Positions 17,036 to 54,961 of a stretch of 64,000 nucleotides of DNA are shown piece by piece. The stretch's first letter is position 1; every line of letters starts with the position of its first letter. Source of the stretch: a virus; IMG/VR virus record IMGVR_UViG_3300035183_000460, positions 32,001-96,000 of that record, one strand, 5' to 3'. The notes under the pieces are model-generated. The model saw nothing but the letters and a program-made list of their open reading frames with translations. It ran no database searches and was not told the DNA's origin. The translations under genes were made by a program, and so were the position numbers.

Positions 17036-17506
17036 ATGTCAAAATTTTCTGTTGATTATAAATCAGTTGAGGACAAATTATATAAAAAAGTTTATAGGTT
17101 ATCAGAAGTTAATGATAAAATAGAAAAGGTGGCTTTTGATATAGTTAGATTTCGTGATGATGATAATGCTAGTAAGCTCTGGCAAATTCATAGTGCTGAT
17201 GATGGCGATTATATAGTTGCATTATATGATACAGAAGAGGATGTCGTTAAAACTGCAAGCGAAAAATCTAAATGGTCTGTAAGTATTAATAAAATATCAA
17301 AGGATTTAAATGTTTATTATAATGGAGATCCTATTGTTAGGCTATCTTCAGATTCTTTAGGTATTCCAGAATCAGAAATTCATTTAACAGCGCGTTATTT
17401 GCCGTCTAGATTATCAGAAAATAAGAAGTTAGTACGTGCTTTATTAAATAATTTGGATGAATTAACTAAAAAAGATGTATTAAGTAAATACCCAGAGTTG
17501 TTTTAA
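17036..17506 (+). CDS. Conserved hypothetical, head module (VVKTAS motif)
   Basis: SD ggag; first gene of the late block. Confidence 0.75.
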   Translation: MSKFSVDYKSVEDKLYKKVYRLSEVNDKIEKVAFDIVRFRDDDNASKLWQIHSADDGDYIVALYDTEEDVVKTASEKSKWSVSINKISKDLNVYYNGDPIVRLSSDSLGIPESEIHLTARYLPSRLSENKKLVRALLNNLDELTKKDVLSKYPELF

Positions 17507-17526
17507 GTTTTTGAAATAGGTGTGCA

Positions 17527-19143
17527 ATGGACATTGATAAAATCAATAAATTAACTGTTTCGCTGTCAAAGACAATCGAAGATAATCAAAAATTGGCTTT
17601 ACCTATTCTTTCAGCAAAGTTAAATAAATTAGCAAAATCATATCCCAACGATCAAACAATTTTAGCAATATCTAATATTGTTGATAAATTATCAGATAAA
17701 CAGTTTTTTATTACAAGAGCAGAATTAAAAAAGTTATACAATACACTTTATTCTAGAAATACAAAATTTGCAGAATTTTTTGTTGATGAATTAGGTAAAA
17801 TAGATAACGCACCTGCATCACCTACATTATATAAACGTGATTCTAGCTCTAATAATGAGCTAAATATATCTAAATTTGGAGATGCTGTTTTAGCATCTGC
17901 ATTAGAAAGTGTTTTTGATAAAACTATACCACTTAAAAATTATTCTAAAGATGCAGCTACAAAGGCAATAAAATCTGTTACATCTATTTTAGATTCTTGG
18001 AATTTAAAAGCCGCACATATTGATGTTGCGAATGGAAATGAAAAATTTTTAGTTGTTAGAGCAGAATATCATACACCTAAAGGTTCTACCAGCTTTTATA
18101 TACCAGTAGAGGTTAACAATAATGATATATCTGAACCAGATATATTCATGGGTAATACTGGACCTAAAACGTTAAATTATACAAATATTAAAGAATATTT
18201 AACGCAATTTGCTGGAGATAAGTTAAAGATCAAAGCTGATGAAATGTTAGATGTGTTAGTCTCTGTTGCATCTAGTAATAGAAAGATTTCGGATGCTGAA
18301 ATAGCACTTATTAAATTAAATGCTAATAAAAAATCTAGTTTGGGAGAATTTGGTAATCAAATAATTGGACAACGTGTAGAAGAAAAACCTGTCTCTGATA
18401 TTAAAACTGATAGATCTGAAGAATCATTCTGTTTTGAGAAAAAATTTAATTCTCCGTTTGGTATTGCATCTATTAATTTTGGACAAGATAAAGTTAAATT
18501 AGGCAGTGATTTGGTATCAAGACATTTGAAATCATTTGGTTACGATAATCATCGTATTACTGTAAATAGTTCTGACTCTAATACTATTTTTTATGGTGTA
18601 TCACTAGATTGTGGAAGAGTTGCATTTACCGTTCCGGTTAAAGTTGCCTCTAATAAGGTTTTTGAACCAACTGTATTATTGTGTGAAGGTTCAATTTCTC
18701 CATTTTCATCTAAAACAATTAATAAGTTATATATGGAAAATATTACTGATTCTAGGATTGCAGCAACCGCTTCTGCACAATATGGTCTAAAACCAAGTGA
18801 ACTTATTGATAATATAAGAAATGCTGTTAAAAATAATAATTTTGCTAGCGCAGAGGATTCTTTAAATGTGTTGAGAAATTATGGAGACGAAAAAGCTTAT
18901 GCTATTGGATTTAAAATTTATTCAAGTGCATTAGCTGGCAATATTCCATCTGGACCAGAAGAATCAGGATGTTCGCATACAATTAAATCTTCTAACAATC
19001 AGGTTCCAGTTTGTGTACATACTGGATTACCAATAAATAAAGTGTATCAAGATAAGTATGGAAATTGTCGTCCACTTTATCGTAAAGGTATGGATGAATC
19101 TTACGAAGGCGCTTACTTTATGAATCATAAGATTTTTGGATAA
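17527..19143 (+). CDS. Hypothetical protein with internal repeat and C-terminal Cys/His cluster
   Basis: SFYIPVEV...EP / AFTVPVKV...EP duplication; C..C.HTG...C. Confidence 0.75.
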   Translation: MDIDKINKLTVSLSKTIEDNQKLALPILSAKLNKLAKSYPNDQTILAISNIVDKLSDKQFFITRAELKKLYNTLYSRNTKFAEFFVDELGKIDNAPASPTLYKRDSSSNNELNISKFGDAVLASALESVFDKTIPLKNYSKDAATKAIKSVTSILDSWNLKAAHIDVANGNEKFLVVRAEYHTPKGSTSFYIPVEVNNNDISEPDIFMGNTGPKTLNYTNIKEYLTQFAGDKLKIKADEMLDVLVSVASSNRKISDAEIALIKLNANKKSSLGEFGNQIIGQRVEEKPVSDIKTDRSEESFCFEKKFNSPFGIASINFGQDKVKLGSDLVSRHLKSFGYDNHRITVNSSDSNTIFYGVSLDCGRVAFTVPVKVASNKVFEPTVLLCEGSISPFSSKTINKLYMENITDSRIAATASAQYGLKPSELIDNIRNAVKNNNFASAEDSLNVLRNYGDEKAYAIGFKIYSSALAGNIPSGPEESGCSHTIKSSNNQVPVCVHTGLPINKVYQDKYGNCRPLYRKGMDESYEGAYFMNHKIFG

Positions 19144-19146
19144 AAT

Positions 19147-21565: not shown

Positions 21566-23282
21566 TAAATATTTATTAGATCAACAATATGAAATTGATT
21601 TTAATGACCCTTATGTCCAAAAACGGCTTAAGAGTATTAAAAAATTTTTTGATCAATATGATATTGATGTTGATGAAAAATTCGAGATTCCTAACTTAGA
21701 ACTAAAATCTAAGGCATATCCAAATTTTGAAAGTTATTTTCCCGTTTCATCTCCTAGAAATTTACAAAAATGGTTAAAAGCGATACAAGATATCTATAAT
21801 CTAGAAAATTCTGGGATTGGTAGAAATCAAGCATTATTTCGCATAATTGGTAGGTGGGATGATATGGAAAAATTAGATTTTATGCACTGGCTTAGATTTT
21901 ATGAAGAAGGTAATCATTTAAAATATAAAACTGCATCTAATTGGTATGAAGGTATTGCGCCAGGCTATATTTTGCCACTTGGAAATTCTAATACAGTAAC
22001 AGATTATCACAAATCACAAGATTCAGAAAACAGTGAATCTCTAGATAAGAGACAAATAATAGAGAAGCAACGTTCCAAAATTATTGGAAGGTTAGACTCT
22101 ACTGAAAAATTACTTAGATCACAAGAAGGACAATTATTTGCAGGTAAAGAATTTGAAACATTATTAGAGATAATTTATCAATTGAAAAAGAAAATTCAAA
22201 TGATAAATAAAAAAAGTGCTTCTACAAAGCTATATGAAGATATAATTATTAGAGAAGCTAATGTTTTGAAACGTGATGGCTTTGTTAAAGCTGCTGATTT
22301 TCTTTATACTATTGCACAAATGCCATCAGATATTAGCACAATTCCTGCTCCGATGCCTCCAGCATCGCCTACTGATGTATCTGGTTCACCAACTACTGTT
22401 CCTGCAGCCGCTATTGGTAATACACCACCGGATAATAATCCGCCTGATATTTTTAATAAAAAAGATGAACAAATTAATGAAGGAATTAGTGAATTTTTAA
22501 GTGGACTTAAAGGTGGAAATATATCTGGTGAGATTGATAAAGCTGATGATGCGCTAGAAATAAATGATTCAAATGATGAACTAGAAATAAATGATTCAAC
22601 TGATGAATTAGTTGTTGAAGCTCAAGTGGTCTCTAAAGATCAAGCAACTGTTTCATCGCCATCTGCTACAACACAACCAGTAAAAGCAGATGAAAAGACT
22701 AATATTAAATTAGAAGATAAGAGTAAAACTTTTGATAATTTAATTGATGCAGCATTTGCTAACATTAAAGTAGATGATGTAATTAATAAATTAGATGAGT
22801 TGTCTAAAATATTTAAGATTAGAGAGGTTCCTCGTCAACTGGCAATAGTAGATATGATGTTAGATACTTTAGGTCTATCGTCATTTTTCCCATCTTTAGC
22901 AGAGGCAACGAATAAATCATTAGAATCAAATCAATATATTCTTACACGTATAGAAGACGTTTTATCAAAATTGCGTGGAAGCCTTGAATCAATTCATAAA
23001 ATTGATATTTCTCCTGAAGATACAGAAAGATCTGATGTGAAAGAATTAAAGAAACAGTTACAGCAAAACATAGATAAAGAAAAAGCAAGAAAACAAATTA
23101 GAAAAGAGCTAGAAGATCAAGCTATTGAACAACAAGTTAAAGAAACGCCAGAAGTAAAAATTGAAGAGGATTTAGCAGCACCAACTACAATTTCTACACC
23201 AGAAGCAGTTCCAACTTCTAAACCAGCAACTTCTGTTCAAACACCTTCTCAAACAACACCTTCTAAAACACAAACTAAATAA
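21552..23282 (+). CDS. Putative internal head protein with Pro/Thr-rich linkers
   Basis: K-x-A motifs; low-complexity linkers; 24-bp repeat. Confidence 0.65.
   Translation: MKQDNKYLLDQQYEIDFNDPYVQKRLKSIKKFFDQYDIDVDEKFEIPNLELKSKAYPNFESYFPVSSPRNLQKWLKAIQDIYNLENSGIGRNQALFRIIGRWDDMEKLDFMHWLRFYEEGNHLKYKTASNWYEGIAPGYILPLGNSNTVTDYHKSQDSENSESLDKRQIIEKQRSKIIGRLDSTEKLLRSQEGQLFAGKEFETLLEIIYQLKKKIQMINKKSASTKLYEDIIIREANVLKRDGFVKAADFLYTIAQMPSDISTIPAPMPPASPTDVSGSPTTVPAAAIGNTPPDNNPPDIFNKKDEQINEGISEFLSGLKGGNISGEIDKADDALEINDSNDELEINDSTDELVVEAQVVSKDQATVSSPSATTQPVKADEKTNIKLEDKSKTFDNLIDAAFANIKVDDVINKLDELSKIFKIREVPRQLAIVDMMLDTLGLSSFFPSLAEATNKSLESNQYILTRIEDVLSKLRGSLESIHKIDISPEDTERSDVKELKKQLQQNIDKEKARKQIRKELEDQAIEQQVKETPEVKIEEDLAAPTTISTPEAVPTSKPATSVQTPSQTTPSKTQTK
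22554..22608 (+). repeat. 24-bp coding tandem duplication (LEINDSxDE x2)
   Basis: ctagaaataaatgattcaa occurs twice, 24 bp apart. Confidence 0.8.
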
Positions 23283-24750: not shown

Positions 24751-25731
24751 ATGTCTTTGCAAACAACAGCACAAGAGCTAGAAGTAGTAGAAGAGACGCC
24801 ATCTGAATATGTAGTTTTACAGCCTGTATCTACTCAAATACAACCATCTATGATAACTGTACATACAACGGCTGAACCAACAACGTCTAAACCAACAATA
24901 TCTGAAGAATATGTTGAAAGTGTAAAGCCTGTTGAGTGTTTAGAACTTGTTGAATGTGTAGAACCTACAGATGAAATTGTTGTTGAAGATTTGGGAGAAA
25001 TACCTGGATTAAATGGTAAATTGGATCCGGTTAAAGAAAAAGTTCTTGAAGTATCAGAATCTGATTCTAATGAAGAAGATAAGTTAGATGTTAATGATAA
25101 TACCAAATCTAAAAAAGATGATCGTTGGGATTGGGAGTCTAAAGGTCCAGTAGGATTTGTAGCTTGGGTATATGATAGATTTGCATCTGTACCAAAACAT
25201 TCTGGATATGATTCTGCTGGAATAGAACGAGCAATTGCATTTTTAGAAAAATTAGATAATGAAATTTCTAGGGCTATGCGATTGGACCTAGATGGTGAAT
25301 TAGATTTTAATCAAATAGAAGATATTCGTTCCAAAATAGAAGATGGAATTGAAAGACTATATAATAGATTAGATAAAATTAAAAGCAAATCAAAAAAGAA
25401 ACGTAAAAAAGCTGATGAATCGTATGAGCTAATCAAAGAAGCTCAAAAAATTCCTGGTGTTTCTGGAATATATGTAACTGTTCCTTTATTAATTTCTAGA
25501 ATTGCTAGAGTTTGTATAAATGGTATGGTATCTGCAGGGCATGATATTGAAGATCTGTTTAATCGACAAGTTAAAAAATATAAACTTAATGATCGTGAAA
25601 AAGCAGAAACAATGCAATTATTATCAGATATGGGGTATCCATTAAGACAAGATCGTGGATTTTTGTTAGATGAAGATGTAGATACTCGTTCTTCTGATAA
25701 TTTTGATTGGAATGCAAACTATAAGGGATAA
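24751..25731 (+). CDS. Putative head-associated protein
   Basis: SD gaggt; acidic N-terminus; LIKEAQ motif. Confidence 0.7.
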   Translation: MSLQTTAQELEVVEETPSEYVVLQPVSTQIQPSMITVHTTAEPTTSKPTISEEYVESVKPVECLELVECVEPTDEIVVEDLGEIPGLNGKLDPVKEKVLEVSESDSNEEDKLDVNDNTKSKKDDRWDWESKGPVGFVAWVYDRFASVPKHSGYDSAGIERAIAFLEKLDNEISRAMRLDLDGELDFNQIEDIRSKIEDGIERLYNRLDKIKSKSKKKRKKADESYELIKEAQKIPGVSGIYVTVPLLISRIARVCINGMVSAGHDIEDLFNRQVKKYKLNDREKAETMQLLSDMGYPLRQDRGFLLDEDVDTRSSDNFDWNANYKG

Positions 25732-28539: not shown

Positions 28540-30297
28540 ATGTCTTTTATTAAATCAAAATCAGAAAAGTTCTTAGAGCGTAGAGGAAATGTTCCTCAAA
28601 TTAGTGCTATAATGGCACAATCAGTATCAGAATATAGACGTGATATGTTAGCAAACGAAGTTGCTCACGGATTATTTTCAGATGGATCAGATAGAAATAT
28701 AAAAAATGAATTAACTGATGCTGGAAATGTTACATCATCAGTTGGCATTATTAAAAATGCACAGGTTACTACCACTAATTATCGTGGTAACAATGATACA
28801 GTAAAACAAACACCTGAAATTTATTCTCCTTTATGGTTAAATTCAAATCTTAATTTACCAAGAGATCGTGCAACTATTAATGCGTGGTGTCGTAGTTTTT
28901 ATGCATTAAATCCATTTGTTCATAATGCTATAAATCTTCATAGTACATATCCTATTAGCAAATTAAATATAAAATGTGCCAACAAGGAAGTTGAAAATTT
29001 CTTTAATGATATGATTGAAGAAATTGATTTGATGAATATTTGTGTTCAAATAGCACAAGAATTTTGGTTATTAGGAGAAGCTTTTGTTTATGCCGAATTA
29101 GATATTTCTAAGGGAAAATGGAGTAGGTTATTTATTCAAAATCCTGACTACATGATAGTTAAACGTACAGCAATAGCATCAGATCCTATAATAATGTTAA
29201 GACCTGATGAAAATTTGAAACGAATAGTATTTTCTAATAAGCCGTCAGATATTGAGCAAAGAAAGCAATTAAATAATCATATTATTGATTGTGTTAAGCG
29301 TGGAGAAAATATTCCTTTAGATGGATTCAATGTTTCTCATTTATCAAGAAAAATTAGCCCATATGAAATTCGTGGAACCGGTTTACCTGTATGTATTTTT
29401 CGTCAATTAATGCTTTTTGATAAACTTCGTGAAAGCAAATATGCTCAAGCCGATAATATGATTAATCCGCTAACATTAGTTAAAGTTGGTGGCGGTGATG
29501 GTGGATATAAGCCTACTTTTGCTGATCTTGAAAATTGGAGATCGATTTTTGAAGAAGCTCAATATGATAAAGATTTTAAAATATTTACTCATGAAGGTGT
29601 TACTATAGAGCGTATTGGTGCAGGTAGTGGCATATATGATATTTCTTCTGATATTACTCAATTAGTTAAAGAAATTTATACAGGTTTGCAAGTTCCATCA
29701 GTATTAATGGATGGCGGATCTGATACCACTTATGCAAACGGAGGGGTAGCTTTAGATGTATTAAGACAACGCTATATGCAGTTTAGAAATATGTTAGCAA
29801 TATGGCTAAAAAGAAAAATATTTGCTCCAATTTCTAAATTACAAGGATTTTATGAATATAAGGGTAATGGTAATAAATCTGAAAAGCAATTAATCGTGCC
29901 AGAAGTAGAATGGAATCATATGTCATTATTTGATGCTGGCGATTATATTCAAAATTTGATTAATTTAACTCAAGGAGAAGGTGAAGCAAAACGTGTATCA
30001 TTGACTACATTATATAAGTCGCTAGGACTAGAATGGGAAGATGAAATGCGTAAAATGCGTAAAGAGGCTATTTGTGCTGCTATTGCTAAAAAAGAAAAAG
30101 CAGCATTAGAGGCAATGGATTTGACAGCATTGAGATCTTTAAGTGATGATGATGAGATTATGGAGCCATCATCTACCAATGAATCTGCTGTACCTGGTGA
30201 ACCGTCTGGAGAAAAATCTGATTTAGGTACGTTACCAGGAATGGAATCACCAACTGCATCTCCATCTATGCCTCCTGCAACTCCACCTACATCATAA
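28540..30297 (+). CDS. Portal protein
   Basis: Follows terL; P.VHNAINLH, EFWLLGEAF, HL.RK.SPYE.RG, TGLQVP, SYA-like TYAN; Pro-rich tail. Confidence 0.82.
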   Translation: MSFIKSKSEKFLERRGNVPQISAIMAQSVSEYRRDMLANEVAHGLFSDGSDRNIKNELTDAGNVTSSVGIIKNAQVTTTNYRGNNDTVKQTPEIYSPLWLNSNLNLPRDRATINAWCRSFYALNPFVHNAINLHSTYPISKLNIKCANKEVENFFNDMIEEIDLMNICVQIAQEFWLLGEAFVYAELDISKGKWSRLFIQNPDYMIVKRTAIASDPIIMLRPDENLKRIVFSNKPSDIEQRKQLNNHIIDCVKRGENIPLDGFNVSHLSRKISPYEIRGTGLPVCIFRQLMLFDKLRESKYAQADNMINPLTLVKVGGGDGGYKPTFADLENWRSIFEEAQYDKDFKIFTHEGVTIERIGAGSGIYDISSDITQLVKEIYTGLQVPSVLMDGGSDTTYANGGVALDVLRQRYMQFRNMLAIWLKRKIFAPISKLQGFYEYKGNGNKSEKQLIVPEVEWNHMSLFDAGDYIQNLINLTQGEGEAKRVSLTTLYKSLGLEWEDEMRKMRKEAICAAIAKKEKAALEAMDLTALRSLSDDDEIMEPSSTNESAVPGEPSGEKSDLGTLPGMESPTASPSMPPATPPTS

Positions 30298-30551: not shown

Positions 30552-31772
30552 ATGAATAAAATAGCTCAGAGAAGAAGTCTACTCAGTAAATTGCGTGAAA
30601 AATTAGATATTGGTGGTCATGCTGCTGAAATGTTTAGTCCTACATTTGCTAAAATTATGGAAGATCTAAATAATATTGATGATTCTATTAGAGAAATATT
30701 ATTAGAATCTGATTTAAAGGGTTTACTTGCAGAGGCAAGATCTAATTTTAATCGTCGAGAATATATGTTATCAGTTTCAAAATTAAAAGATTTTCATACA
30801 ATATTAGATAAAATTTATAAGATTCTTAGTAATTTTAAAGCAGATGTTTCTCGTGTTCATGAAGAATTTTTATTTAAAGATTTAGATGAAGAAACAAAAC
30901 AAAGTTTGCTTGGATTAAAATCAAAATTTGATACAACTGCATCTTTATCTAATATCTTGTTTAAAGAAGCAGGCATTTTAGATTGGTGGTATACTATTAC
31001 TACTGATCGTGGTAAAGCTATGAGGGCTTGGGAAAAAAGATATCCTGATAAAATGAGACAATTAAAATCTCAAACAGATTTATTAATTTCTAGGTCTGAG
31101 CAGCTTTTTGATCTACTATTAAAAGAATTAAAAAATATGTCTTGGGCTCGCGCCAAAAGAAAAGTTGAAGACTATTTAAAATCATCTGAAAAATTCATTA
31201 AAAAATATGAAGAATATAATAAACAATTTAAACAATATTATGTAGATAATATTAAAAATTTTGTTGAAAAATTACAACTAGAAACATCTAAAAAAGTTGT
31301 AACTGATGACGATGAAGGTAAGCAATTAATTTCTTTGCCTAAGACAGAACCTATTAAGCCAAAGATACCTACCGAACAGGCTAAACAAGAATCTTTGAGT
31401 AAGTTAGACACTATTTATGGTCCTGATACAGAAACTGCTGAAAAAAGGCGCCAGAAAGCTGAATTAAGAAAAGAATTAGAGTATGCCGAACAACAGAAAA
31501 AAAAGCAACTTGCAGAGGAAAGTGCAAAAAATACAGTAGATAAAGATAAAGAAAAAAATACAGTAGATAAAGAAAAAGATAAAGATAACGATAAAAATGT
31601 AAAATCATCAAAATCTTCTCATCAGAGATTTCTAAATACTTTAGAGATATTAGCAAATGAGCATCCTATAATTTTAGCTAAAGAAATATATAAATACGCT
31701 AAATATATAGAAAATACAGACAAACAAACTAGTTTAAAACTTTTTAAAATTGTTGATGGTATTATAAAGTAA
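30552..31772 (+). CDS. Putative internal head protein
   Basis: MNKIAQ and LFKEAG motifs; KD-rich repeat. Confidence 0.65.
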   Translation: MNKIAQRRSLLSKLREKLDIGGHAAEMFSPTFAKIMEDLNNIDDSIREILLESDLKGLLAEARSNFNRREYMLSVSKLKDFHTILDKIYKILSNFKADVSRVHEEFLFKDLDEETKQSLLGLKSKFDTTASLSNILFKEAGILDWWYTITTDRGKAMRAWEKRYPDKMRQLKSQTDLLISRSEQLFDLLLKELKNMSWARAKRKVEDYLKSSEKFIKKYEEYNKQFKQYYVDNIKNFVEKLQLETSKKVVTDDDEGKQLISLPKTEPIKPKIPTEQAKQESLSKLDTIYGPDTETAEKRRQKAELRKELEYAEQQKKKQLAEESAKNTVDKDKEKNTVDKEKDKDNDKNVKSSKSSHQRFLNTLEILANEHPIILAKEIYKYAKYIENTDKQTSLKLFKIVDGIIK

Positions 31773-35143: not shown

Positions 35144-35305
35144 ATGTTTATTAAACATGGTGATGGTAAAATAATCTCAGTTTTTAAAAAAGAAGATATT
35201 GACGAACAACAAAAAACAGCAATTAATGAAGTCGAAAGTGAAATAAAAAAAGAATCATATATAGATCATAAAGATCTTAAAAGTAAAGAACAGAGGTTTA
35301 ATTAA
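35144..35305 (+). CDS. Small 53-aa protein missed by the ORF track
   Basis: SD aagga; MFIKHGDGKIISVFKKEDIDEQQKTAINEVESEIKKESYIDHKDLKSKEQRFN*; TAATG overlap with the protease gene. Confidence 0.65.
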   Translation: MFIKHGDGKIISVFKKEDIDEQQKTAINEVESEIKKESYIDHKDLKSKEQRFN

Positions 35306-41047: not shown

Positions 41048-42529
41048 ATGTCTTTTAAACATATTAAATTTGAAGATTCAATCACTATGAGATCATTAGA
41101 AAAATTAGCAGTTTCTAAGGGTTTGATTAAACCTGATGCTGTTATTAAAATTGCAAACAAATCAGAAAACAAGGATTTTAGACCAACAAATGATTTTACA
41201 GTGAATATAATTAAATTATGTGAAGGTTTAAGATCATTTGGTTTTACTAAACAAGCAGAAGAAATTGAATTAAAATTTTTATTATTTAAAAAAGCTTCTG
41301 CAGATAATTATAACACTTCAAAAGAAGTTGGAGAAGATTTGGTTGAAGCTGCACATCCAGAAGGAAGTCATACTATTGAAAATGTTTTAGGTGATGCCGT
41401 CGTAGAAACAATTGTTGATCAAAAAAAGAAAATTGAAGATATTGTTAATAAAAAGCCAACCGGCAAATTTGCATCAAATAAAGATATTGTAGAGGCAGTA
41501 AAATTATCTTTAGGTGGAGTTGCAGAATTTAGTGCGGCAGATTTAGGATCCAAACAAGGTGTATTTGCAAAAATTTTGCAGTTATTAACTAGATCTTCTC
41601 CAGCTACTATAGAAACAGGAGGAGCTGTAGGAGCAGGAGAAGTGGCAGCTACAGGAATAGGAGCAACTACAGTTTCTACTACCGCTTCTGCATTAGCAAT
41701 TCCATTAGCTGCCATTGTTGGTGGATACATTGGATACAAAATATTTGAGAATAAATTTTATTCTACTGATTTAAAAAAAGCTTATGACAATTGCATTTCA
41801 GAGGCAAATGATGTTTTAAAATTGATGTCAGATAAACAAATTGTTGATTTGAAACATTTAAAAGAAAATTTTATGGCTGCAATGGATTTATCTGAAAAAA
41901 TGTCTGCAAATGCAAAAGATCCAAAAGTTAAAGATGTCATGATGATGAAATCATATATTAATCATTTACTAGATGCTATGAATGCAGCCGCATCATTAAT
42001 GTCATGGGCTCGTGGTAAACGCACTAAAACAGAAGGTATGAAACCTGGAACGTTTGTTAGCGATGACAGTATATGGTCAGAATATATAGCTTCGTCGCCT
42101 TTTCTTTTGCTGTCTGATGCATCTCAGCTAAAAGATTTAGAACTGGCTGCTGGTAATTTTATTAATGTTGCTTCAAAAGCAAAAGCAGAAACTCAGCATA
42201 CAATTAATTCTATAATTTCTGATGTTACAGAAAAAGCTAATGAAGAAATAAAACAACAAGGTGGAGAATCAGTTGTAGAGTTACAAAAAGCACAAGATGA
42301 AGCATTAAAAACTATTAATATATGGAAATACAAAATCAATGCTGGACAATATGAAAATAAAAATGTTTTATTAAGCTTTTTAAATAAAGCTGAAAAAATT
42401 ATTACAGATCAGAAAAATGCTTTTGACTCTGCAAAAGAAAACAAAGTATATATTGTTAAAGAATATAAAGAGAAATTAGATAAAGTTTTACAAAAATTAG
42501 AAATATTTAAGAGCCACTGGATAAAGTAA
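41048..42529 (+). CDS. Putative internal/ejection protein with hydrophobic Gly/Ala segment
   Basis: AHP..VE module; ALAIPLAAIVGGYIGY hydrophobic helix. Confidence 0.6.
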   Translation: MSFKHIKFEDSITMRSLEKLAVSKGLIKPDAVIKIANKSENKDFRPTNDFTVNIIKLCEGLRSFGFTKQAEEIELKFLLFKKASADNYNTSKEVGEDLVEAAHPEGSHTIENVLGDAVVETIVDQKKKIEDIVNKKPTGKFASNKDIVEAVKLSLGGVAEFSAADLGSKQGVFAKILQLLTRSSPATIETGGAVGAGEVAATGIGATTVSTTASALAIPLAAIVGGYIGYKIFENKFYSTDLKKAYDNCISEANDVLKLMSDKQIVDLKHLKENFMAAMDLSEKMSANAKDPKVKDVMMMKSYINHLLDAMNAAASLMSWARGKRTKTEGMKPGTFVSDDSIWSEYIASSPFLLLSDASQLKDLELAAGNFINVASKAKAETQHTINSIISDVTEKANEEIKQQGGESVVELQKAQDEALKTINIWKYKINAGQYENKNVLLSFLNKAEKIITDQKNAFDSAKENKVYIVKEYKEKLDKVLQKLEIFKSHWIK

Positions 42530-42532: not shown

Positions 42533-43729
42533 ATGAAAAATATAGTTCAATTAATAAAAAAAATAGCAAAAGACGATGATTTAGATGTTCCTTTAAATCC
42601 AAACATTTCTAAACCATCATCCGTGTCAAAAGACGATGATTTAGATGTTCCTTTAAATCCAAACATTTCTAAACCATCATCTGTGTCAAAAGACAATAAT
42701 GTAAGTGTCCCTTCTGATACAACTGCACAAAAATCTAAATATGTGTTAGCCAGATCTCCTCTCATTAAAGAAATGCAAGAAAAAATGCAAAAATTGGCTG
42801 ACATTATTTCTGAACAAATTGATTTCGATTCATTATTTCAAGGTATACTGTATCCTCAAGCAGCAAATCTTCAAAATATCAGTAAATCATTAGGTCGTAC
42901 ATCATTTAGTAATTTTATGGTTTTATCATATTTAAGAGATTCTGCTGTAAAAGGTGTTGAATTTGATCCTGATCCTAAGAAATCAAAATTAAGTCAAAAA
43001 ATGCCATCAGATTTAAAAAATATGTATGTTGTTTTAGATTCAATTAAAAGATTAGGTTCAGAAAGTAATGAATTTGCTGTGGATGGTATATGGGGTCCAA
43101 GAACTAATAATTCTTTGAGAAATATTGTTGCAATTGCAGATGCTATTTTAAGAATTAGTGATGATTTAGGTTTTAAAGTAAAATCATTTAATTCATTACA
43201 ATTAAAAGATTTGCAATCAATGATTCCTTTAACTGATAAAGATATTTCATTACAAGAAAAAAATATACGCGCACCATTTATTTCTAAATATTTAGATGAT
43301 TTGATTTCTTTATTTAAAGAATTTAATGAAGAAATATTGAATAGTCCATATAATAAACAACAAATAGAGGGCGCTAGTTTTATAACATACAAAAAAAGTA
43401 AAACTAAAGATGTTCCAGATATGAGTGATGATGAGAAAAATATTTATTTAGATTTGGTAAAAAATAAAAATCAAAGTTTTTATGTACAGCCAGATCAAGC
43501 AAAATTTAAAATAAATTTGGGTAGTGGTACACCATTTATAATTACAGCCGCTGATTTACTAAATGCACAATCTTTAGACAATTGGGCAAGTCGTAATTCA
43601 TATACTAATGAATGGCGTAAAAATCCTGAACACTGGAAAATTGTAGTTGATCAAATAATAAAGCAGGTTAAACAACAAATAAATCAACAACTTTCATTAA
43701 CGAGAGTACCAGAACCAAAAGGAATATAA
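42533..43729 (+). CDS. Virion protein with PG-binding-like motif
   Basis: VDGIWGPRTNNSL (DG..GP.T..L); 20-aa duplication right after KKIAK. Confidence 0.55.
   Translation: MKNIVQLIKKIAKDDDLDVPLNPNISKPSSVSKDDDLDVPLNPNISKPSSVSKDNNVSVPSDTTAQKSKYVLARSPLIKEMQEKMQKLADIISEQIDFDSLFQGILYPQAANLQNISKSLGRTSFSNFMVLSYLRDSAVKGVEFDPDPKKSKLSQKMPSDLKNMYVVLDSIKRLGSESNEFAVDGIWGPRTNNSLRNIVAIADAILRISDDLGFKVKSFNSLQLKDLQSMIPLTDKDISLQEKNIRAPFISKYLDDLISLFKEFNEEILNSPYNKQQIEGASFITYKKSKTKDVPDMSDDEKNIYLDLVKNKNQSFYVQPDQAKFKINLGSGTPFIITAADLLNAQSLDNWASRNSYTNEWRKNPEHWKIVVDQIIKQVKQQINQQLSLTRVPEPKGI
42567..42694 (+). repeat. 60-bp near-perfect tandem duplication
   Basis: Two copies with 1 mismatch, plus an 8-bp third start. 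Confidence 0.92.
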
Positions 43730-43735: not shown

Positions 43736-45262
43736 ATGAGTTTTATATATAATGATAAAAACTTAATACTTACTTTAATTAAAAGTGGTATTGATTTTGA
43801 GAATAAATATGTTCGAAAAAATGCGCAAACTTTACCTTTGGATCCAAATGCAGATCCAAGTGTTAAAAATTATTTATTATTAACTCGTAAACTAGTTGAT
43901 CAATTAGAGCAAAATTTTTATAATAAAGATAAAGGTCAAAATGTTCCTGCAGAAATTTCAACAGAATTAGATGTGTCATCACCATTAAATGTTTCCAGTT
44001 TAAGTTCTTTTGGAAATTTTTTGCAATATCTAGAACAAAATAAAATATTAGTTAATGGCAACCGTGTTGTATATTTTGGAGAAAATCCAGATCCTAAATC
44101 ATATTTGCCAGTTTCTGGTGAACTTGATAATATGATGGAAACTGGTAAACGAGAATCTATAAAACAAGAATATTTTGTTAATATAAAATTACTTCAAGAT
44201 TATTTACTTTCATTACAAAAATTAGCTCAAGATACAAAAGATAAAGTGTTAGAGATAATGGTAGGTAAGAGAGTTGAAGATGTTAATAAGATTTTTAGAA
44301 TGAGTTTACCTAAAAAATATCAAGAACCAGAATATGTATTATCTCAAGAAGAAACATTAACCACATTTCCACGTACTATTGATTATAGTAATTATACTGC
44401 TGATGGATCAATTCAATTATTATACAAAGATATTGCTGACGCTAATTCTTTTAGGTCATGGGCTTTTTCTAATAAAATACAACTTAAGATACCTGGATAT
44501 GATAAAGAATTTAATGTAACTGATGCCGATTTTGATTTCTGTAATTTAATTAAGGTTGTATACTTAAAGGCGCGTTGGTTATTAAGTAGATCAATATCTA
44601 AAGATCAAGAAAGAAAATATAATATTTTTGTAAAACAAATAGAAATGGTTAGTAAAGGAATTAGTGGTCCTAATGGAGAAGCTTGCTCATTAACTTCATA
44701 TGAATATGATAATAAATCAAAAAGTACTAATAAATCAAAAAGTCCTAATGTAACAGATCGTAGTGAAGTTGAAAAATCTGATGTAGATTATAATAGGGCA
44801 AAAATAATTAATTCAATGAAAAATATGTTTCCTTATAAGGAAGGTGAAATAGATTTTGATAGAATAACTAGATTTGTTGATAAATATTCACAAATAGAAC
44901 CAAGCATTTCTTCATTTGCAAATACTGTTAAACAGCAAATTAAAAAAGCGAAAAGTATGCTTGGTGAGGCAGCAACAGGACAGTTTCTTAATGAAGAGGT
45001 TGATGATATTCAAAAGAAATTAGAACATCCAGAAAGAATTGCCGAATATTTATTGACATTGCAATATATAATTGAAACTGTTGCTAAAATAATGATGGTT
45101 TTCAAATCTAAAGATTTTGATTATATGGATGATCACACAAAAGATGAATTTATAAAACAAGTTGGTAGCGATGCCAATGATGCGTCTGCACTTCGTTACA
45201 ATAATGCTTTGGTTATTAAAAACTGGCAAAGTAATTTACATAGAGTTCTTAGAAATAATTAG
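43736..45262 (+). CDS. Putative internal head protein
   Basis: VRKNAQ at ~aa 30. Confidence 0.65.
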   Translation: MSFIYNDKNLILTLIKSGIDFENKYVRKNAQTLPLDPNADPSVKNYLLLTRKLVDQLEQNFYNKDKGQNVPAEISTELDVSSPLNVSSLSSFGNFLQYLEQNKILVNGNRVVYFGENPDPKSYLPVSGELDNMMETGKRESIKQEYFVNIKLLQDYLLSLQKLAQDTKDKVLEIMVGKRVEDVNKIFRMSLPKKYQEPEYVLSQEETLTTFPRTIDYSNYTADGSIQLLYKDIADANSFRSWAFSNKIQLKIPGYDKEFNVTDADFDFCNLIKVVYLKARWLLSRSISKDQERKYNIFVKQIEMVSKGISGPNGEACSLTSYEYDNKSKSTNKSKSPNVTDRSEVEKSDVDYNRAKIINSMKNMFPYKEGEIDFDRITRFVDKYSQIEPSISSFANTVKQQIKKAKSMLGEAATGQFLNEEVDDIQKKLEHPERIAEYLLTLQYIIETVAKIMMVFKSKDFDYMDDHTKDEFIKQVGSDANDASALRYNNALVIKNWQSNLHRVLRNN

Positions 45263-45280: not shown

Positions 45281-46351
45281 ATGTTGTATAAAAAGAATAG
45301 AGCAATAAATCTTTATGTTGATGCATTGATAATTCAAGCAGCTTTTGGTGATGAAGTTATTACTAAAAAAGCTGAAGGAGAATTTGTTGCATCGCTTATT
45401 TCTTCTGTTAAAGATTATGTTGATGCACACATAGATCCAAATGATAAAGTTGGTAGTGTAGTTAATTTATTGGCTCCTGGAGCGTTTTCTACATTAGTTA
45501 GTTCATTATTTCCTAGTTTGAAATGGCTGTCATTTATTTTTGGTTTAGCAATGCGTATATTCAATATTGATGTTGCTAGTATATTAAAAAATATTTCTTC
45601 AGACATAAAATCGTTAATTTCTGGAGGTAAAGAAATCTCCTCAGATCATGTAGATAATATTGTTACATCGCACTTTAGTGCAGTTCCACCAGCTACACAA
45701 GAAGATGCAGAGCGGTTTTTAAAATCTTCTCATATACGAATTAGAGAGGCAAAATTAATTAAATTAGCACTTATTAATATAAATGATCAATTAATTAAAA
45801 ATTCAAAATCTGATAATACTGCCTCTTCATTTATTCTTGGTAAACGCAACACTGTTAACTTATTAGCTAAAGCTATAGGATGGATCATAAAAATTATTTT
45901 AGCTTCTGCAGGTTTAATGGTTGCGGGTGATGCAGCAAATGCTTTACTAGGAAAACCTAGCGCATTTACAGGTACACTACAACATGGTAAACCTATTGAT
46001 GCTACCAAATCTAAACAAACTAGGTTTAAAGTTAATACATCATATTCTGATATTGCTAAAAATACTAACTCATCTGTATGGGTAGAGAATGTTAGCCCAT
46101 CACGTAATAATATTATAAATTTAGTTCTTGATTTTATGGAAGAGGTCTATCCAGAAACTAAAGATTTTAACAATGAGGCAATGTCAACTCCAGGATTTCA
46201 GGTAATAGTAGATGAAATTTTAGATTATAATGAAGCTAATCAAAATAGACAAATGACATATATACCAAAAGCTTTTGATACAAAAAAAAGACTTGTAGAT
46301 ATGTTTATTGATCAAGTGGCAGAAAAAGCTGGAAATATGCAAAAATCTTAA
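45281..46351 (+). CDS. Putative internal/ejection protein with hydrophobic helices
   Basis: TKKAE at ~aa 30; WLSFIFGLAM and IGWIIKIILASAGLMVAG segments. Confidence 0.6.
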   Translation: MLYKKNRAINLYVDALIIQAAFGDEVITKKAEGEFVASLISSVKDYVDAHIDPNDKVGSVVNLLAPGAFSTLVSSLFPSLKWLSFIFGLAMRIFNIDVASILKNISSDIKSLISGGKEISSDHVDNIVTSHFSAVPPATQEDAERFLKSSHIRIREAKLIKLALININDQLIKNSKSDNTASSFILGKRNTVNLLAKAIGWIIKIILASAGLMVAGDAANALLGKPSAFTGTLQHGKPIDATKSKQTRFKVNTSYSDIAKNTNSSVWVENVSPSRNNIINLVLDFMEEVYPETKDFNNEAMSTPGFQVIVDEILDYNEANQNRQMTYIPKAFDTKKRLVDMFIDQVAEKAGNMQKS

Positions 46352-46387: not shown

Positions 46388-47656
46388 ATGTCAAATAGTG
46401 AGATTTTTGATAAATATGCAGAACGTGCTATAGAAAATGGTCTTATTTCTAGGGCAGATACAAAAGAAAAATTAGAAAGTGGAGCTGGTGTTGATTCATT
46501 AGATATTTCAGCTATTGAATCTCTTTATGGTATTAAACCAAATCTTCCTAAAAACATGCAATATAAAAAAAATATAGTTGAAGATGCTCATCCAAATGCG
46601 GTAATAGTATCTCCTTCCTATGATAAATTAAATGGATTGGTTGAAAATATTAATGAGCGTCAAAATATTATATTAAATATTGTTAATAAGCCTGCTGATG
46701 GACATCATACACAGCATAAATATGCAAATGACTTAATATTATCTTTAGTTAGAGTAGCTAATTATATGGATAATATTGATAATAATGAATTAATGATACT
46801 CGCAGATAAATGTATTGAACAATTAAATATGAAAAAGACCATTGCATCCCCATTGGGATGGGCTGCTGGGGTTGCCGCAGTGGCAGTTATTGGAGGACTA
46901 ATTTATTGGTCTCAACATACTGATGAGATAAATAAGGGTTTTGTACAAAATGCAGAAAATCTAATTAAACAATTAGAAGATTTAATTACTTCTGGTACTG
47001 GATCTTTGTCTACTAGAACAGAATATCGTGATGAATTTAAAAATCAATTGAAAGATGTACAAAATAAGATAAAAGAAGTTTTACAATCTTACGATAAGAT
47101 TAATGAAATTATTGATGAAATTGAAGCTCCAAAAGCTGCTACTTCTTTATATAATCAATTGCAAGCAGCCAAACAAATATCTAATAAACCATCATATATT
47201 GATATTTATAATAAATTTAAAGTTCAGGTTCAAGATTTAGAGCCTATGCTAATTAGTTTAGAGAAGAATTTTAAGAATGAATCATATAAGCGTCGTCAAG
47301 TTAAAAAAGATGAAAGTGTTTGGTCAAAAATAAATGATATGTTTGGCGGAATATTCTATGGTGGTAAAGGACTTATTGCAGATGAATTTGATGATGTCGT
47401 TCATGCAATTCCACCGTTTAGAAAATCAATAGAAGAAATTCAAGAAATTATTCAACATGCACAACAAGCTGAGAAAACGGCTATAAATAAATATAAAGAT
47501 TCTTTGCTTCAAATGCAGAAATACGAATTAAAACCTGAAACATCATCATCTTCTCAAAATAAAAATGATGAATTTAAATTAACTAATCTTCCTTCAAACG
47601 TAGAAGATTTAATAAAGTATATGAAAACTATGGAAGATTATGATAATAAGTTATAA
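46388..47656 (+). CDS. Putative internal/ejection protein with TM-like helix
   Basis: AHP..VE module; LGWAAGVAAVAVIGGLIYW. Confidence 0.6.
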   Translation: MSNSEIFDKYAERAIENGLISRADTKEKLESGAGVDSLDISAIESLYGIKPNLPKNMQYKKNIVEDAHPNAVIVSPSYDKLNGLVENINERQNIILNIVNKPADGHHTQHKYANDLILSLVRVANYMDNIDNNELMILADKCIEQLNMKKTIASPLGWAAGVAAVAVIGGLIYWSQHTDEINKGFVQNAENLIKQLEDLITSGTGSLSTRTEYRDEFKNQLKDVQNKIKEVLQSYDKINEIIDEIEAPKAATSLYNQLQAAKQISNKPSYIDIYNKFKVQVQDLEPMLISLEKNFKNESYKRRQVKKDESVWSKINDMFGGIFYGGKGLIADEFDDVVHAIPPFRKSIEEIQEIIQHAQQAEKTAINKYKDSLLQMQKYELKPETSSSSQNKNDEFKLTNLPSNVEDLIKYMKTMEDYDNKL

Positions 47657-50944: not shown

Positions 50945-50985
50945 GATCTTATGCCAAGAAACCCACCAGCCTTGTGCTGGTGTAT
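50945..50985 (+). mobile_element. IS200/IS605 left-end remnant (third copy)
   Basis: After TTTAT; 40/41 identical to 8013-8053; truncated just after the hairpin. Confidence 0.8.
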
Positions 50986-51000
50986 ATATGTATATTATTG

Positions 51001-54088: not shown

Positions 54089-54256
54089 GTAATGTATGAT
54101 GTTATGCTAATAAAATCGTAAATTTTGTTGCTGTAATTTATTCTACGATATCCAATACCTACGAATCTAATAATATTAAGAAGTTATAGCATATCAGTAT
54201 TCATTGATAATATTAATAATCTTGTATTAATAAGTAGTTCAACTTTTAGTAATAGC

Positions 54257-54961
54257 ATGAATATCGAAGACTTTTCAGAATTATATTTATTAGTTTTTGG
54301 AAGTTCTAAAGATATATACTCTCGTAAAGAGTCTATTTCTTTAAGAAAAGATAGTTTAAATTCACTAATTAATAGTGGATTTAAGAAAATTGCTTTCGAT
54401 ACTAGAAGAATTAATCAAGAAATAGATTTTAATCCGCGCCGTGGTTTGCAAAATTATCATCGTAGCGAAAAGTTTATTTCAGAAGCAACTTCTCAAAAAA
54501 TCAAAAATTTTCTTAAATTAAAAAAAGTATTACAGGATTTAAAAGATAAATATGGTAGAGAGCCTGAATGGCAAGATAGTTATGCTCGCGTATTATTAAA
54601 TGCATTGGAAAAATCGTTAAGAATTGAAGAAAAAGATGGAGATTATGCTGAAGGACAACCAGGCATAGGAAGTTTCGATTATTTAGAAGAATTGCTTTAT
54701 GTTAGATATAGATTAGATATGAATAATATACAATCTATGTCTGAGGAAAAATTGAAGAAAGTAATTTTAGATAAAGATGAAAATTTGACACATACAGATC
54801 CTAATGCTGCTACAACTTGTGAAATATCTAAGCGAGATATTGCTACTCAATCATATGATACGTTATTAGAAAAATTATTTGGTGGAGTTAAAGCTACAGC
54901 TGAAAATCCTGAAGTTGAGCGAACTGTAACTATTACAATTAGAGACAAATTTGTGGGATAA
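54257..54961 (+). CDS. Hypothetical protein
   Basis: FKKIAF motif at ~aa 45. Confidence 0.7.
   Translation: MNIEDFSELYLLVFGSSKDIYSRKESISLRKDSLNSLINSGFKKIAFDTRRINQEIDFNPRRGLQNYHRSEKFISEATSQKIKNFLKLKKVLQDLKDKYGREPEWQDSYARVLLNALEKSLRIEEKDGDYAEGQPGIGSFDYLEELLYVRYRLDMNNIQSMSEEKLKKVILDKDENLTHTDPNAATTCEISKRDIATQSYDTLLEKLFGGVKATAENPEVERTVTITIRDKFVG

What the first reader, a model, noticed from the sequence alone, without database searches (positions are those of the whole stretch)
17036..54961. K-x-A motif recurring across ~20 head-module proteins: candidate prohead-protease processing code
Seen: otherwise unrelated proteins carry [hydrophobic/K]-K-x-A-[S/Q/E/A/G], often 5-80 aa from the N-terminus or at the edge of low-complexity linkers. 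Examples: VVKTAS (17036); YKTAS, KKSAS (21552); LIKEAQ (24751); IIKNAQ (portal); MNKIAQ, LFKEAG (30552); YKIAY, KKKAS, IKTAA (32901); nine or more in the protease-scaffold (KKIAA, NKQAF, LKRAS, YKIAQ, GKSAS, VKRAS, NKLAE, RKEAE, VKEAG); YKTAK (38872); EKMAS (39627); IKIAN, FKKAS, GKFAS (41048); KKIAK (42533); RKNAQ (43736); TKKAE (45281); HKYAN (46388); KKIAF (54257). Known: T4 gp21 and phiKZ gp175 cut many head proteins after short x-x-Glu motifs, and herpes-type proteases cut after Ala. Inference: the protease at 35305 matures a large internal cargo set at K-x-A|, an Ala-specific counterpart of the T4/phiKZ system.
Basis: partly seen in the sequence, partly recalled or inferred. Interest (0 to 1): 0.8.

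Follow-up and report, generated by a model that had tools for sequence, protein, structure and literature searches.

The report
Lys-x-Ala head-protease cleavage code
Head proteins of this uncultured 113-kb relative of Bacillus phage G carry a conserved hydrophobic-x-Lys-x-Ala signal at domain edges; it most likely marks where the phage's T4/herpesvirus-type capsid protease cuts, after alanine rather than glutamate, but no cut has been measured.

Summary
The motif is real. Raw counting overstates it: K-x-A is only 1.34-fold enriched in 17-55 kb, and the sharper form, hydrophobic-x-K-x-A, is also about 2-fold enriched in the replication genes and in a metabolic region of phage G. The persuasive evidence is comparative. 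Across 28 orthologue families, K-x-A is the most over-conserved of 283 gapped dipeptides (26 sites against 12.8 expected, p=3e-5). Other K/A spacings, R-x-A, K-x-G and the T4, phiKZ and herpes-type motifs show nothing, and neither does K-x-A in the replication module. Conserved sites sit beside indel-rich linkers (12 of 26 against 3.9 expected). They share a consensus: P5 hydrophobic, P3 Lys, P1 Ala, P1' Gln/Ser/Gly/Ala. The 1185-aa product of 35305-38862 is a protease-scaffold fusion. Its N-terminal domain has the T4 gp21/herpes assemblin fold (Z about 10), and invariant His136 and Ser187 align with gp21 His85 and Ser140. Its best-conserved K-x-A sites mostly lie at domain boundaries, one of them 40 residues from the C-terminus as in herpes M-sites. 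About 14 proteins, not 20, have supported sites. Cleavage and the "internal cargo" role are inferred. The scan reached the same reading earlier on at least five related genomes.

The parts
35305..38862 (+). Protease-scaffold fusion protein, 1185 aa (P0001)
   Evidence: PHROG head maturation protease; phage G gp19 33% over residues 38-277; over 600 full-length homologues, nearly all 1100-1300 aa; AF2 domain map
35449..36054 (+). Protease domain (about residues 49-250) with invariant His136 and Ser187
   Evidence: AF2 pLDDT 86.5; VIA Z 10.0 VZV protease, 9.9 T4 gp21; hhalign maps H136/S187 to gp21 H85/S140; invariant columns
35410..35427 (+). Scaffold site K38 (FKKIA|A), just before the protease domain
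   Evidence: Joint conservation 0.91 in 117 homologues; retained in diverse representatives; phage G gp19 has LVKTA|A at the aligned place
36481..36498 (+). Scaffold site K395 (LNKQA|F; clade consensus K-x-[A/G]-Y-F-Q-G), repeated about 85 aa downstream
   Evidence: [KR]x[AGS] 0.99; in a disordered coil; retained in diverse representatives
37162..37179 (+). Scaffold site K622 (MYKIA|Q): conserved island followed by a 60-aa disordered Pro/Ala linker
   Evidence: K 0.99, A 0.90, Q 0.91 against flanks near 0.1; last turn of folded domain 546-623; retained in diverse representatives
38176..38193 (+). Scaffold site K960 (RAKLA|S)
   Evidence: Joint 1.00; retained in diverse representatives; lies in helix 951-964, so accessibility is uncertain
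38725..38742 (+). Scaffold site K1143 (LVKEA|G), 40 aa from the C-terminus; candidate M-site analogue
   Evidence: Joint 0.84; in a disordered linker before C-terminal helix 1169-1178; K-x-A-[SG] 42-45 aa from the C-terminus in Myrna gp97 and E3 gp77
28747..28764 (+). Portal site K72 (IIKNA|Q)
   Evidence: K 1.00, A/G/S 0.99, Q 1.00 in 60 orthologues, flanks variable
30552..30569 (+). Gene 30552 site K3 (MNKIA|Q); the same protein also has K138 (30957-30974) and K381 (31686-31703)
   Evidence: All three K-x-A sites conserved (0.93, 0.93, 0.82) in a family with a 4% base rate
33294..33311 (+). Gene 32901 site K134 (VIKTA|A); weaker site K8 (32916-32933)
   Evidence: Joint 1.00 and 0.77 in 44 orthologues
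41141..41299 (+). Gene 41048 N-terminal cluster of sites K34, K68, K81
   Evidence: Consensus l.K.As, G..K.A.E and nYK.AqT, each at least 0.8 conserved
42554..42571 (+). Gene 42533 site K10 (IKKIA|K), followed by a Pro-rich indel linker
   Evidence: One of only 2 conserved K and 2 conserved A in a 24%-identity family
43811..43828 (+). Gene 43736 site K28 (VRKNA|Q); most orthologues have K-x-G-Q
   Evidence: K 0.90, P1' Q 0.80, followed by an indel linker
45359..45376 (+). Gene 45281 site K29 (ITKKA|E)
   Evidence: Joint 0.90-0.95 in 40 orthologues of 34% identity; indels directly after the site
46712..46729 (+). Gene 46388 site K111 (QHKYA|N)
   Evidence: Joint 0.94, follows an indel-prone loop
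49925..49942 (+). Major capsid protein site K25 (LVKYA|S), in a 45-aa N-terminal extension that phage G gp27 lacks
   Evidence: MCP is phrog_2522; extension and site; not informative for conservation because the MCP is 88% identical throughout
54380..54397 (+). Gene 54257 site K44 (FKKIA|F), at the switch from a variable N-terminus to an invariant block
   Evidence: Joint 1.00 in 50 orthologues
21921..22298 (+). Gene 21552 sites K126 (KYKTA|S) and K246 (FVKAA|D), upstream of the terminase gene
   Evidence: Joint 1.00 and 0.97 in a 41%-identity family
25429..25446 (+). Gene 24751 site K229 (LIKEA|Q)
   Evidence: K 1.00, A 0.90, Q 1.00, indels just upstream

Best explanation
K-x-A, more exactly hydrophobic(P5)-x-Lys(P3)-x-Ala(P1) followed by Gln/Ser/Gly/Ala, is the recognition and cleavage motif of the phage's own prohead protease.

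Shown here: that protease is the N-terminal assemblin-fold domain of the 1185-aa protease-scaffold fusion encoded at 35305-38862.

Inferred: inside the assembled prohead the enzyme cuts itself and its scaffold at about five or six boundary sites. Candidates are after residues 40, 397, about 480, 624, possibly 962, and 1145. The last cut would release a 40-residue C-terminal tail, as herpesvirus M-site cleavage releases the scaffold from the capsid protein. The enzyme would also trim about a dozen other structural proteins, mostly removing N-terminal propeptides of 5 to about 130 residues. These include the portal, the capsid protein, and the products of genes 30552, 32901, 41048, 42533, 43736, 45281, 46388 and 54257, and perhaps 21552 and 24751.

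The protease fold, the candidate catalytic residues and the conservation and placement of the motif are shown. Cleavage itself, the exact scissile bond and the fate of the fragments are inferred.
For: Protease identity:
- PHROG head maturation protease.
- Homology to phage G gp19 and to actinophage prohead proteases.
- AF2 domain model at pLDDT 86.5. The top 36 structural matches are all T4 gp21 or herpes assemblins, Z 10.0 to 6.8.
- Invariant H136 and S187 align to gp21 H85 and S140.

Motif under selection:
- K.A is rank 1 of 283 gapped dipeptides in a family-stratified conservation test, p=3.2e-5. It is stable at thresholds 0.6-0.8, and rank 1 of 212 in diverged families without the scaffold.
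- Specific to spacing and residues: KA, K..A, K...A, A.K, R.A, K.G, K.S, Q.A and K.L are not significant. T4-type [LI].E, phiKZ-type [SAG].E and [VLI].A are not significant.
- Negative control: replication-module orthologues show no excess, whereas head genes at matched divergence do.

Placement:
- 12 of 26 conserved sites lie within 8 residues of an indel hotspot, against 3.9 expected.
- N-terminal islands followed by Pro-rich linkers occur in unrelated families.
- Among diverse scaffold homologues, five conserved K(i)-A(i+2) pairs remain where about 0.6 is expected. Four lie at boundaries or in flexible segments; site 960 is inside a helix.

Lineage:
- Phage G gp19 has K-x-A-[AS] before and after its protease domain, and K.AS is 7 vs 1.7 expected in its head region.
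- Myrna and E3 fusions keep K-x-A-[SG] 42-45 aa from the C-terminus.

Precedent: SPN3US gp245 cuts MCP, portal, ejection proteins and itself at a three-residue motif with P4 and P1' preferences (PMC10052503).
Against: - No experimental N-terminus exists for any protein of this clade. The phage G proteomics searched tryptic peptides only.
- Shuffle-based enrichment is not specific: replication proteins and a phage G metabolic region carry the extended motif 2-3-fold above expectation.
- Several strongly conserved scaffold sites (810, 820, 1018, 1090, and 960) lie inside confidently modelled helices, where a protease could not easily reach them.
- P1' is aromatic at two conserved sites (395 and 54257:44).
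- A 5-residue propeptide (30552:K3) is unusually short.
- The MCP site cannot be judged, because the whole MCP is 88% conserved, and it is not clearly homologous in actinophages.
- The His/Ser mapping rests on a statistically weak alignment (E 0.1).
Confidence: 0.62

Rival explanations
1. K-x-A is a docking or capsid-targeting motif rather than a scissile site. In this reading it is a short linear motif through which scaffold, portal and minor head proteins bind a common partner (protease, scaffold or shell interior) for incorporation, and they are not cut there.
For: Conservation, the N-terminal position and the linker that follows are equally expected of a targeting peptide. Many sites sit at the end of a short amphipathic helix. 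A motif starting at Met1 (30552:K3) suits binding better than removal of five residues.
Against: There are several sites per protein: four within 85 aa in 41048, and five or six spread along the scaffold. That fits degradation into fragments better than docking. The motif flanks the protease domain itself in phage G and here. In T4 the targeting sequence and the cleavage site coincide, so the two readings do not exclude each other.
Confidence: 0.15
2. Ordinary sequence bias. K-x-A, especially hydrophobic-x-K-x-A, is a common amphipathic-helix pattern in the Lys-rich proteins of AT-rich phages, and the apparent code is a by-product of helical scaffold-like proteins.
For: K.A is only rank 18 of 1428 for enrichment. 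L-x-K and phi-x-K-x-L/I/M/F are also enriched about 1.5-fold. The replication module (15 vs 7.5) and a phage G metabolic region (12 vs 4.1 for the full motif; K.AQ 8 vs 2) are enriched too. About half of the quoted instances are unconserved.
Against: Bias does not explain the over-conservation that is specific to K.A: rank 1 of 283, with the helix-face spacings K..A and K...A and the analogues R.A, K.L and Q.A at chance. It does not explain why this is absent from replication genes, why conserved sites lie next to indel linkers, or why there is a P1' Q/S preference only in 17-55 kb. Phi.E.A, phi.D.A and phi.R.A are not enriched.
Confidence: 0.13
3. The sites are cleaved, but by a different enzyme: a host protease or a second phage protease, as Staphylococcus phage 80-alpha capsid and scaffold proteins are trimmed by the host Prp protease before Ala-Ser-type junctions (from my own knowledge).
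For: No direct link between the 35305 protease and the sites has been shown. Gene 24751 has a faint match to another head-maturation-protease family (E 0.006).
Against: The motif is densest in, and flanks, the protease-scaffold protein itself. It tracks this protease lineage across very different hosts: Bacillus/Lysinibacillus, actinobacteria and uncultured hosts. No second protease was recognised in the window.
Confidence: 0.05

Closest known systems
Bacteriophage T4 prohead protease gp21 with its substrates (gp22, gp67, gp68, IPI-III, Alt, gp23, gp24); MEROPS S77, PDB 5jbl
   Same: Same fold (Z 9.9, 132 of 165 residues aligned). His and Ser lie at aligned positions. One protease matures many head proteins at a three-residue motif, mostly removing N-terminal propeptides and fragmenting the scaffold.
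   Different: T4 cuts after Glu in (L/I)-x-E, and that motif shows no conservation signal here. T4 gp21 is a separate 212-aa protein, not fused to a roughly 900-aa scaffold. There is no detectable sequence similarity (E 0.1).
phiKZ gp175 / Salmonella phage SPN3US gp245 prohead protease (MEROPS S80)
   Same: A virion-wide cleavage code with P4 and P1' preferences; the substrates include MCP, portal, abundant internal proteins and the protease itself (PMC10052503).
   Different: The code there is A-X-E with P1 Glu (S/A/G-x-E in phiKZ, from my own knowledge). Here P1 is Ala and P3 is Lys. [SAG].E shows no signal.
Herpesvirus assemblin / UL26-type protease-scaffold precursor (MEROPS S21)
   Same: Same fold (VZV Z 10.0, PRV 9.5, HSV-2 and HCMV about 8). 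The protease is at the N-terminus of the scaffold in one polypeptide. The predicted P1 is Ala with a small or polar P1'. There is a candidate release site about 40 residues from the C-terminus, like the M-site.
   Different: The herpes consensus is (V/L/I)-x-A|S with a hydrophobic P3 (from my own knowledge). Here P3 is Lys and the hydrophobic residue is at P5, and [VLI].A shows no signal. Many more sites and substrates are predicted. A third catalytic residue was not identified.
Bacillus phage G gp19 (head maturation protease), with gp14 portal and gp27 MCP
   Same: The nearest cultured relative: MCP 53%, portal 31-33%, protease 33% identical. K-x-A-[AS] flanks its protease domain, and K.AS is 7 vs 1.7 expected in its head region.
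   Different: In phage G the protease is a separate 300-aa protein and the MCP lacks the 45-aa N-terminal extension. Its specificity has not been determined.
Mycobacterium phage Myrna gp97 / Rhodococcus phage E3 gp77 protease-scaffold fusions
   Same: The same fusion architecture directly upstream of the MCP, with K-x-A-[SG] 42-45 residues from the C-terminus.
   Different: Only the protease domain aligns (about 35% identity). These proteins are Lys-poor, and no cleavage data were found. Myrna gp97 is labelled tape measure in its record.

Membership tests
Assemblin-fold prohead proteases (clan SH: T4 gp21 S77, phiKZ gp175 S80, HK97 gp4 S78, herpes S21) | Herpesvirus-protease-like beta-barrel fold | tested here: met
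   AF2 pLDDT 86.5. Foldseek top hit 5jbl, probability 0.99. VIA Z 10.0 (1vzv, rmsd 2.4, 114 aligned) and 9.9 (5jbl_A, rmsd 2.9, 132 aligned). The top 36 rows are all this clan; unrelated folds start at Z 6.4 or below.
Assemblin-fold prohead proteases (clan SH) | Catalytic His followed about 50-70 residues later by catalytic Ser | tested here: met
   H136 and S187 are invariant in 110 and 57 homologues. hhalign places them on T4 gp21 H85 and S140, but the alignment is weak (E 0.1). That these are the gp21 catalytic residues comes from my own knowledge.
Assemblin-fold prohead proteases (clan SH) | Encoded in the head module between the portal and the major capsid protein, next to or fused with the scaffold | tested here: met
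   TerL 26370, portal 28540, protease-scaffold 35305, MCP 49859.
Assemblin-fold prohead proteases (clan SH) | Proteolytic activity on head proteins | not testable with these tools
   Needs proteomics or an enzyme assay.
T4 gp21-type (S77) specificity | Cleavage after Glu in (L/I)-x-E | tested here: inconclusive
   [LI].E is conserved 21 times against 20.8 expected (p 0.52), so there is no sign of selection. Actual cleavage was not measured.
phiKZ/SPN3US-type (S80) specificity | Cleavage after Glu in (S/A/G)-x-E | tested here: inconclusive
   [SAG].E is conserved 21 times against 23.6 expected (p 0.78). Actual cleavage was not measured.
Herpesvirus assemblin (S21) | Protease fused N-terminally to the scaffold, with release (R) and maturation (M) sites at Ala|Ser | tested here: inconclusive
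   The fusion architecture is met. A candidate M-like site K1143-E-A|G lies 40 aa from the C-terminus and is 0.84 conserved. No conserved K-x-A lies directly after the protease domain; the first is at 395. Cleavage is unmeasured.
Herpesvirus assemblin (S21) | Ser-His-His catalytic triad | not tested
   The third residue was not identified, and model coordinates could not be inspected.

The most novel reading that the evidence does not exclude
Prohead proteases of the whole phage G / actinophage cluster-C lineage (hundreds of uncultured phages of 100-480 kb) cut after alanine, the P1 preference of herpesvirus assemblins, rather than after glutamate as in T4 and phiKZ. If so, Ala specificity would be an old trait of the shared assemblin fold, and K-x-A would define a processed virion proteome of a dozen or more proteins that can be read straight from sequence, including proteins encoded upstream of the terminase.
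Probability: 0.3. Interest if true: 0.8.

Novelty: new variant of a known kind. Interest (0 to 1): 0.6.

Why it matters
Virion-wide cleavage codes have been established by experiment for only a few phage groups: T4, phiKZ/SPN3US, and to some extent HK97 and T5. A sequence-readable code for the large, mostly uncultured phage G-related clade would have three uses. It would allow prediction of mature virion proteins and propeptides directly from metagenomes. It would flag candidate packaged proteins. It would also give a phage counterpart to the Ala-specific herpesvirus assemblins, which bears on how specificity evolved in the protease shared by tailed phages and herpesviruses. The idea can be tested now, because phage G is cultivable and virion LC-MS/MS data for it have been deposited.

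Tried and rejected
- **Plain K-x-A enrichment as proof:** rejected. It is rank 18 of 1428, and the P5-extended motif is equally enriched in replication genes and in phage G metabolic genes.
- **Pooled conservation test on the first 8 families:** underpowered (4 of 19, p 0.10). It was superseded after the portal-flank loci were added.
- **All-vs-all BLAST for shared leader modules among window proteins:** nothing relevant found.
- **Phage G orthologues for site conservation:** only portal, protease and MCP are alignable.
- **MCP N-terminal site homology in Myrna and E3:** rejected after direct alignment. Their KLA[SH]IL aligns with the MCP body, not with our LVKYAS.
- **Full-length AF2 model for the protease fold:** that domain folded poorly, so it was refolded alone.
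- **Profile search of PDB sequences:** no hit.
- **Pfam on 19 proteins and PHROGs on the unknown head genes:** no useful annotation.
- **Literature:** no cleavage-site data for phage G or this clade.
- **Generic amphipathic-helix explanation:** accounts for about 1.5-fold of the phi-x-K-x-hydrophobic excess, but not for the K/A specificity or the conservation.
Full report
**Setting.** The window is bases 32001-96000 of a single 112.6-kb contig with about 27% G+C and nearly all genes on the + strand.
- Bases 1-17 kb hold a replication module: exonuclease, DNA polymerase, UvsX-like recombinase, SSB, primase.
- The structural block holds the large terminase (26370), portal (28540), a 1185-aa protein whose N-terminus matches head maturation proteases (35305-38862), and the major capsid protein (49859-50875, phrog_2522, E 7e-77) flanked by homing endonucleases.
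- The nearest cultured relative is Bacillus phage G: MCP 53%, portal 31-33%, protease gp19 33% identical. Actinophages of the Myrna/E3 type are more distant.
- The MCP is 85-90% identical in about 390 IMG/VR contigs of 2-480 kb, so the phage belongs to a large uncultured clade.

**Is the motif more than chance? Enrichment.**
- K-x-A occurs 95 times in the 33 proteins of 17-55 kb against 71 expected (z 3.1). It occurs 22 vs 23.5 times in 1-16 kb and 78 vs 81 times in the rest of the genome.
- The excess survives local shuffling in 15-60-residue blocks and removal of the scaffold.
- It is only rank 18 of 1428 gapped dipeptides.
- The orthologue consensus suggested a hydrophobic P5. Phi-x-K-x-A occurs 49 times against 22 expected (z 6.0), rank 1 of 282 phi-x-X-x-Z patterns, while phi.E.A, phi.D.A and phi.R.A are at or below 1.07.
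- That form is also 2-fold enriched in the replication module (15 vs 7.5). In phage G, a metabolic control region is enriched as well (full motif 12 vs 4.1; K.AQ 8 vs 2.0).
- Shuffle nulls are therefore too lenient. Measured against the genome's own background the head block is about 2-fold enriched (for example K.A[SQ] 24 vs 8.5 in the block, 11 vs 8.7 elsewhere; p about 0.02). The scaffold alone stands out at 3.3-4-fold.
- The P1' preference for Ser (16 vs 6.2) and Gln (8 vs 2.4) is confined to 17-55 kb.

**Is the motif more than chance? Conservation.** I collected orthologues from 160 related contigs and 117 full-length homologues of the scaffold, and built 28 family alignments. For every gapped dipeptide I counted the sites where both residues are kept in at least 80% of orthologues, against each family's own base rate.
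- K.A is first of 283 patterns: 26 sites vs 12.8 expected, p=3.2e-5.
- It is first of 272 without the scaffold (p=0.0027), and first of 212 in diverged families without the scaffold (10 vs 2.5, p=7e-5).
- It stays first at thresholds 0.6 and 0.7 and is fourth at 0.9.
- KA, K..A, K...A, A.K, R.A, K.G, K.S, Q.A, K.L and K.V are all at chance. So are T4-type [LI].E, phiKZ-type [SAG].E and [VLI].A.
- Family 30552 is the clearest case: 31% mean identity, a 4% base rate, and all three of its K-x-A sites conserved.
- As a negative control I used two relatives that carry the replication module at matched divergence. There K-x-A is kept 8/19 vs 32% for control pairs (p 0.24) and 4/21 vs 22% (p 0.70). 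Head genes gave 24/39 vs 40% and 10/31 vs 21%.

**Where the conserved sites lie.**
- Twelve of 26 conserved sites are within 8 residues of an indel hotspot, against 3.9 expected from other equally conserved pairs in the same families (p=9e-5).
- In the unrelated families 42533, 43736 and 45281, a short conserved N-terminal segment ends in phi-x-K-x-[A/G] and the alignment then breaks into Pro/Ala-rich, length-variable linkers.
- In 54257 the motif marks the switch from a variable N-terminus to an invariant block.
- Family 41048 has three or four conserved sites within its first 85 residues.
- The pooled consensus is P5 L/I/F/M, P3 K, P2 free (often Y/F/I/E), P1 A (minor G/S), and P1' Q most often, otherwise G/A/S.

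**The protease-scaffold.**
- AlphaFold on the full protein shows a protease region, coiled coils, a folded beta-rich domain (546-623), a helical hairpin (685-833), an acidic Ser-rich disordered stretch, a helical domain (about 950-1140) and a C-terminal helix (1169-1178).
- Ten of its 21 K-x-A sites are at least 84% conserved in 117 homologues, and K.A is the top over-conserved pattern within this alignment (p 0.007).
- In a more diverse set (41-71% identity), only 25 Lys and 27 Ala columns remain conserved out of 1086. Yet five K(i)-A(i+2) pairs persist where about 0.6 is expected: sites 38, 395, 622, 960 and 1143.
- Their structural contexts differ. Site 38 is just before the protease domain. 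Site 395 is in a coil. Site 622 is the last turn of the beta-domain, followed by 60 disordered residues. Site 960 is inside helix 951-964. Site 1143 is in the linker 40 residues from the C-terminus.
- The helix-buried sites 810, 820, 1018 and 1090 drop out of the diverse set.
- Phage G gp19 has K-x-A-[AS] before and after its protease domain. Myrna gp97 and E3 gp77, which are also fusions, keep K-x-A-[SG] 42-45 residues from their C-termini.

**Protease family.**
- The isolated domain folds with pLDDT 86.5.
- Foldseek ranks T4 gp21 first (probability 0.99), followed by herpesvirus proteases.
- VIA-align gives Z 10.0 (VZV), 9.9 (T4 gp21, 132 of 165 residues) and 9.5 (PRV). The first 36 rows are all this clan, and unrelated MCE domains start at Z 6.4.
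- His136 and Ser187 are invariant. A statistically weak profile alignment (E 0.1) places them on gp21 His85 and Ser140, which I recall as the catalytic pair.

**Interpretation.** The most economical reading is a T4/phiKZ-style maturation system with a different code. The prohead protease would cut after Ala in phi-x-K-x-A|(Q/S/G/A), fragmenting its own scaffold and trimming about a dozen structural proteins. SPN3US gives the experimental precedent for such a code with P4 and P1' preferences acting on MCP, portal, internal proteins and the protease itself (PMC10052503). The P1 Ala with a small P1', the fusion of protease to scaffold and the site near the C-terminus resemble herpesvirus assemblins. 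The P3 Lys and P5 hydrophobic residue do not. What is shown: the fold, the candidate catalytic residues, and the selective conservation and boundary placement of the motif. What is inferred: cleavage, the scissile bond and the substrate list. I put this reading at about 0.62. The rivals are a docking motif without cleavage (0.15), ordinary helix or composition bias (0.13) and cleavage by another protease (0.05).

Others are background: EKMAS, GKSAS and NKLAE, plus the Lys of LKRAS. "About 20 proteins" is closer to 14, and "internal cargo" is untested.

**Prior notes and literature.** Earlier follow-ups of this scan reached the same reading on at least five other genomes of this group. I read them only after my own tests, and they are not independent evidence. 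The published phage G work annotates gp19 as a head maturation protease but gives no cleavage data and searched tryptic peptides only.

Noticed in passing
window 49859-50875 vs neighbours (L005-L084): The major capsid protein is 85-90% identical across about 390 contigs of 2-480 kb, while the flanking head genes are only 25-55% identical. That is an unusually strong constraint on the shell protein, or a sign of recent spread.
   Followed up: partly
window 36480-36900 (scaffold residues about 393-530): There is a tandem internal duplication in the scaffold. Each copy starts with K-x-A/G/S-Y/W-F-Q-G and continues with EPTPG...KY...R..DK[HQ]M. It is conserved across the clade.
   Followed up: partly
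window 38212-38310 (scaffold residues about 970-1003) and 41048 residues about 100-125: An AHP[KE]G[GS]... module is shared by the scaffold and the 41048 product. It is conserved in 41048 orthologues as AHPkGSHkL, which suggests 41048 is a scaffold-like core protein.
   Followed up: partly
homologues P0039, P0101, P0111 and others of 35305 (about 1400-1600 aa): Many homologues of the protease-scaffold carry an intein with a homing endonuclease (Pfam PF14890, PF05203, PF14528) inserted inside the protease domain near query residue 108.
   Followed up: no
window 48535-49671 (-), 50974-51894, 51983-54088: Three homing-endonuclease-like genes bracket the capsid gene. 50974 and the N-terminal part of 51983 are paralogues, 34% identical.
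   Followed up: no
window 26370-28232: The large terminase has no K-x-A at all in 620 residues, where 2.7 are expected. This could be avoidance of the motif but is not significant on its own.
   Followed up: no
L179:9201-12836 (Mycobacterium phage Myrna gp97): This gene is noted as 'tape measure' in the record, but it is a 1211-aa protease-scaffold fusion homologous to 35305 and lies directly upstream of the capsid gene. The label is probably a misannotation.
   Followed up: partly
window 40262-40948 and 47798-48481: Two well-conserved small proteins (69% and 58% mean identity) start alike (M.LRL.. / MALRLLQPG) and carry no conserved K-x-A. They are possibly shell or decoration proteins, in the position of phage G gp26 and E3 gp78.
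   Followed up: no
window 31772-32542: A protein between the portal and the protease matches an endolysin family (phrog_3513, E 1e-12). Phage G likewise has an endolysin gene inside its head module, and E3 has a LysM-like protein upstream of its protease. This may be a virion-associated lysin.
   Followed up: no
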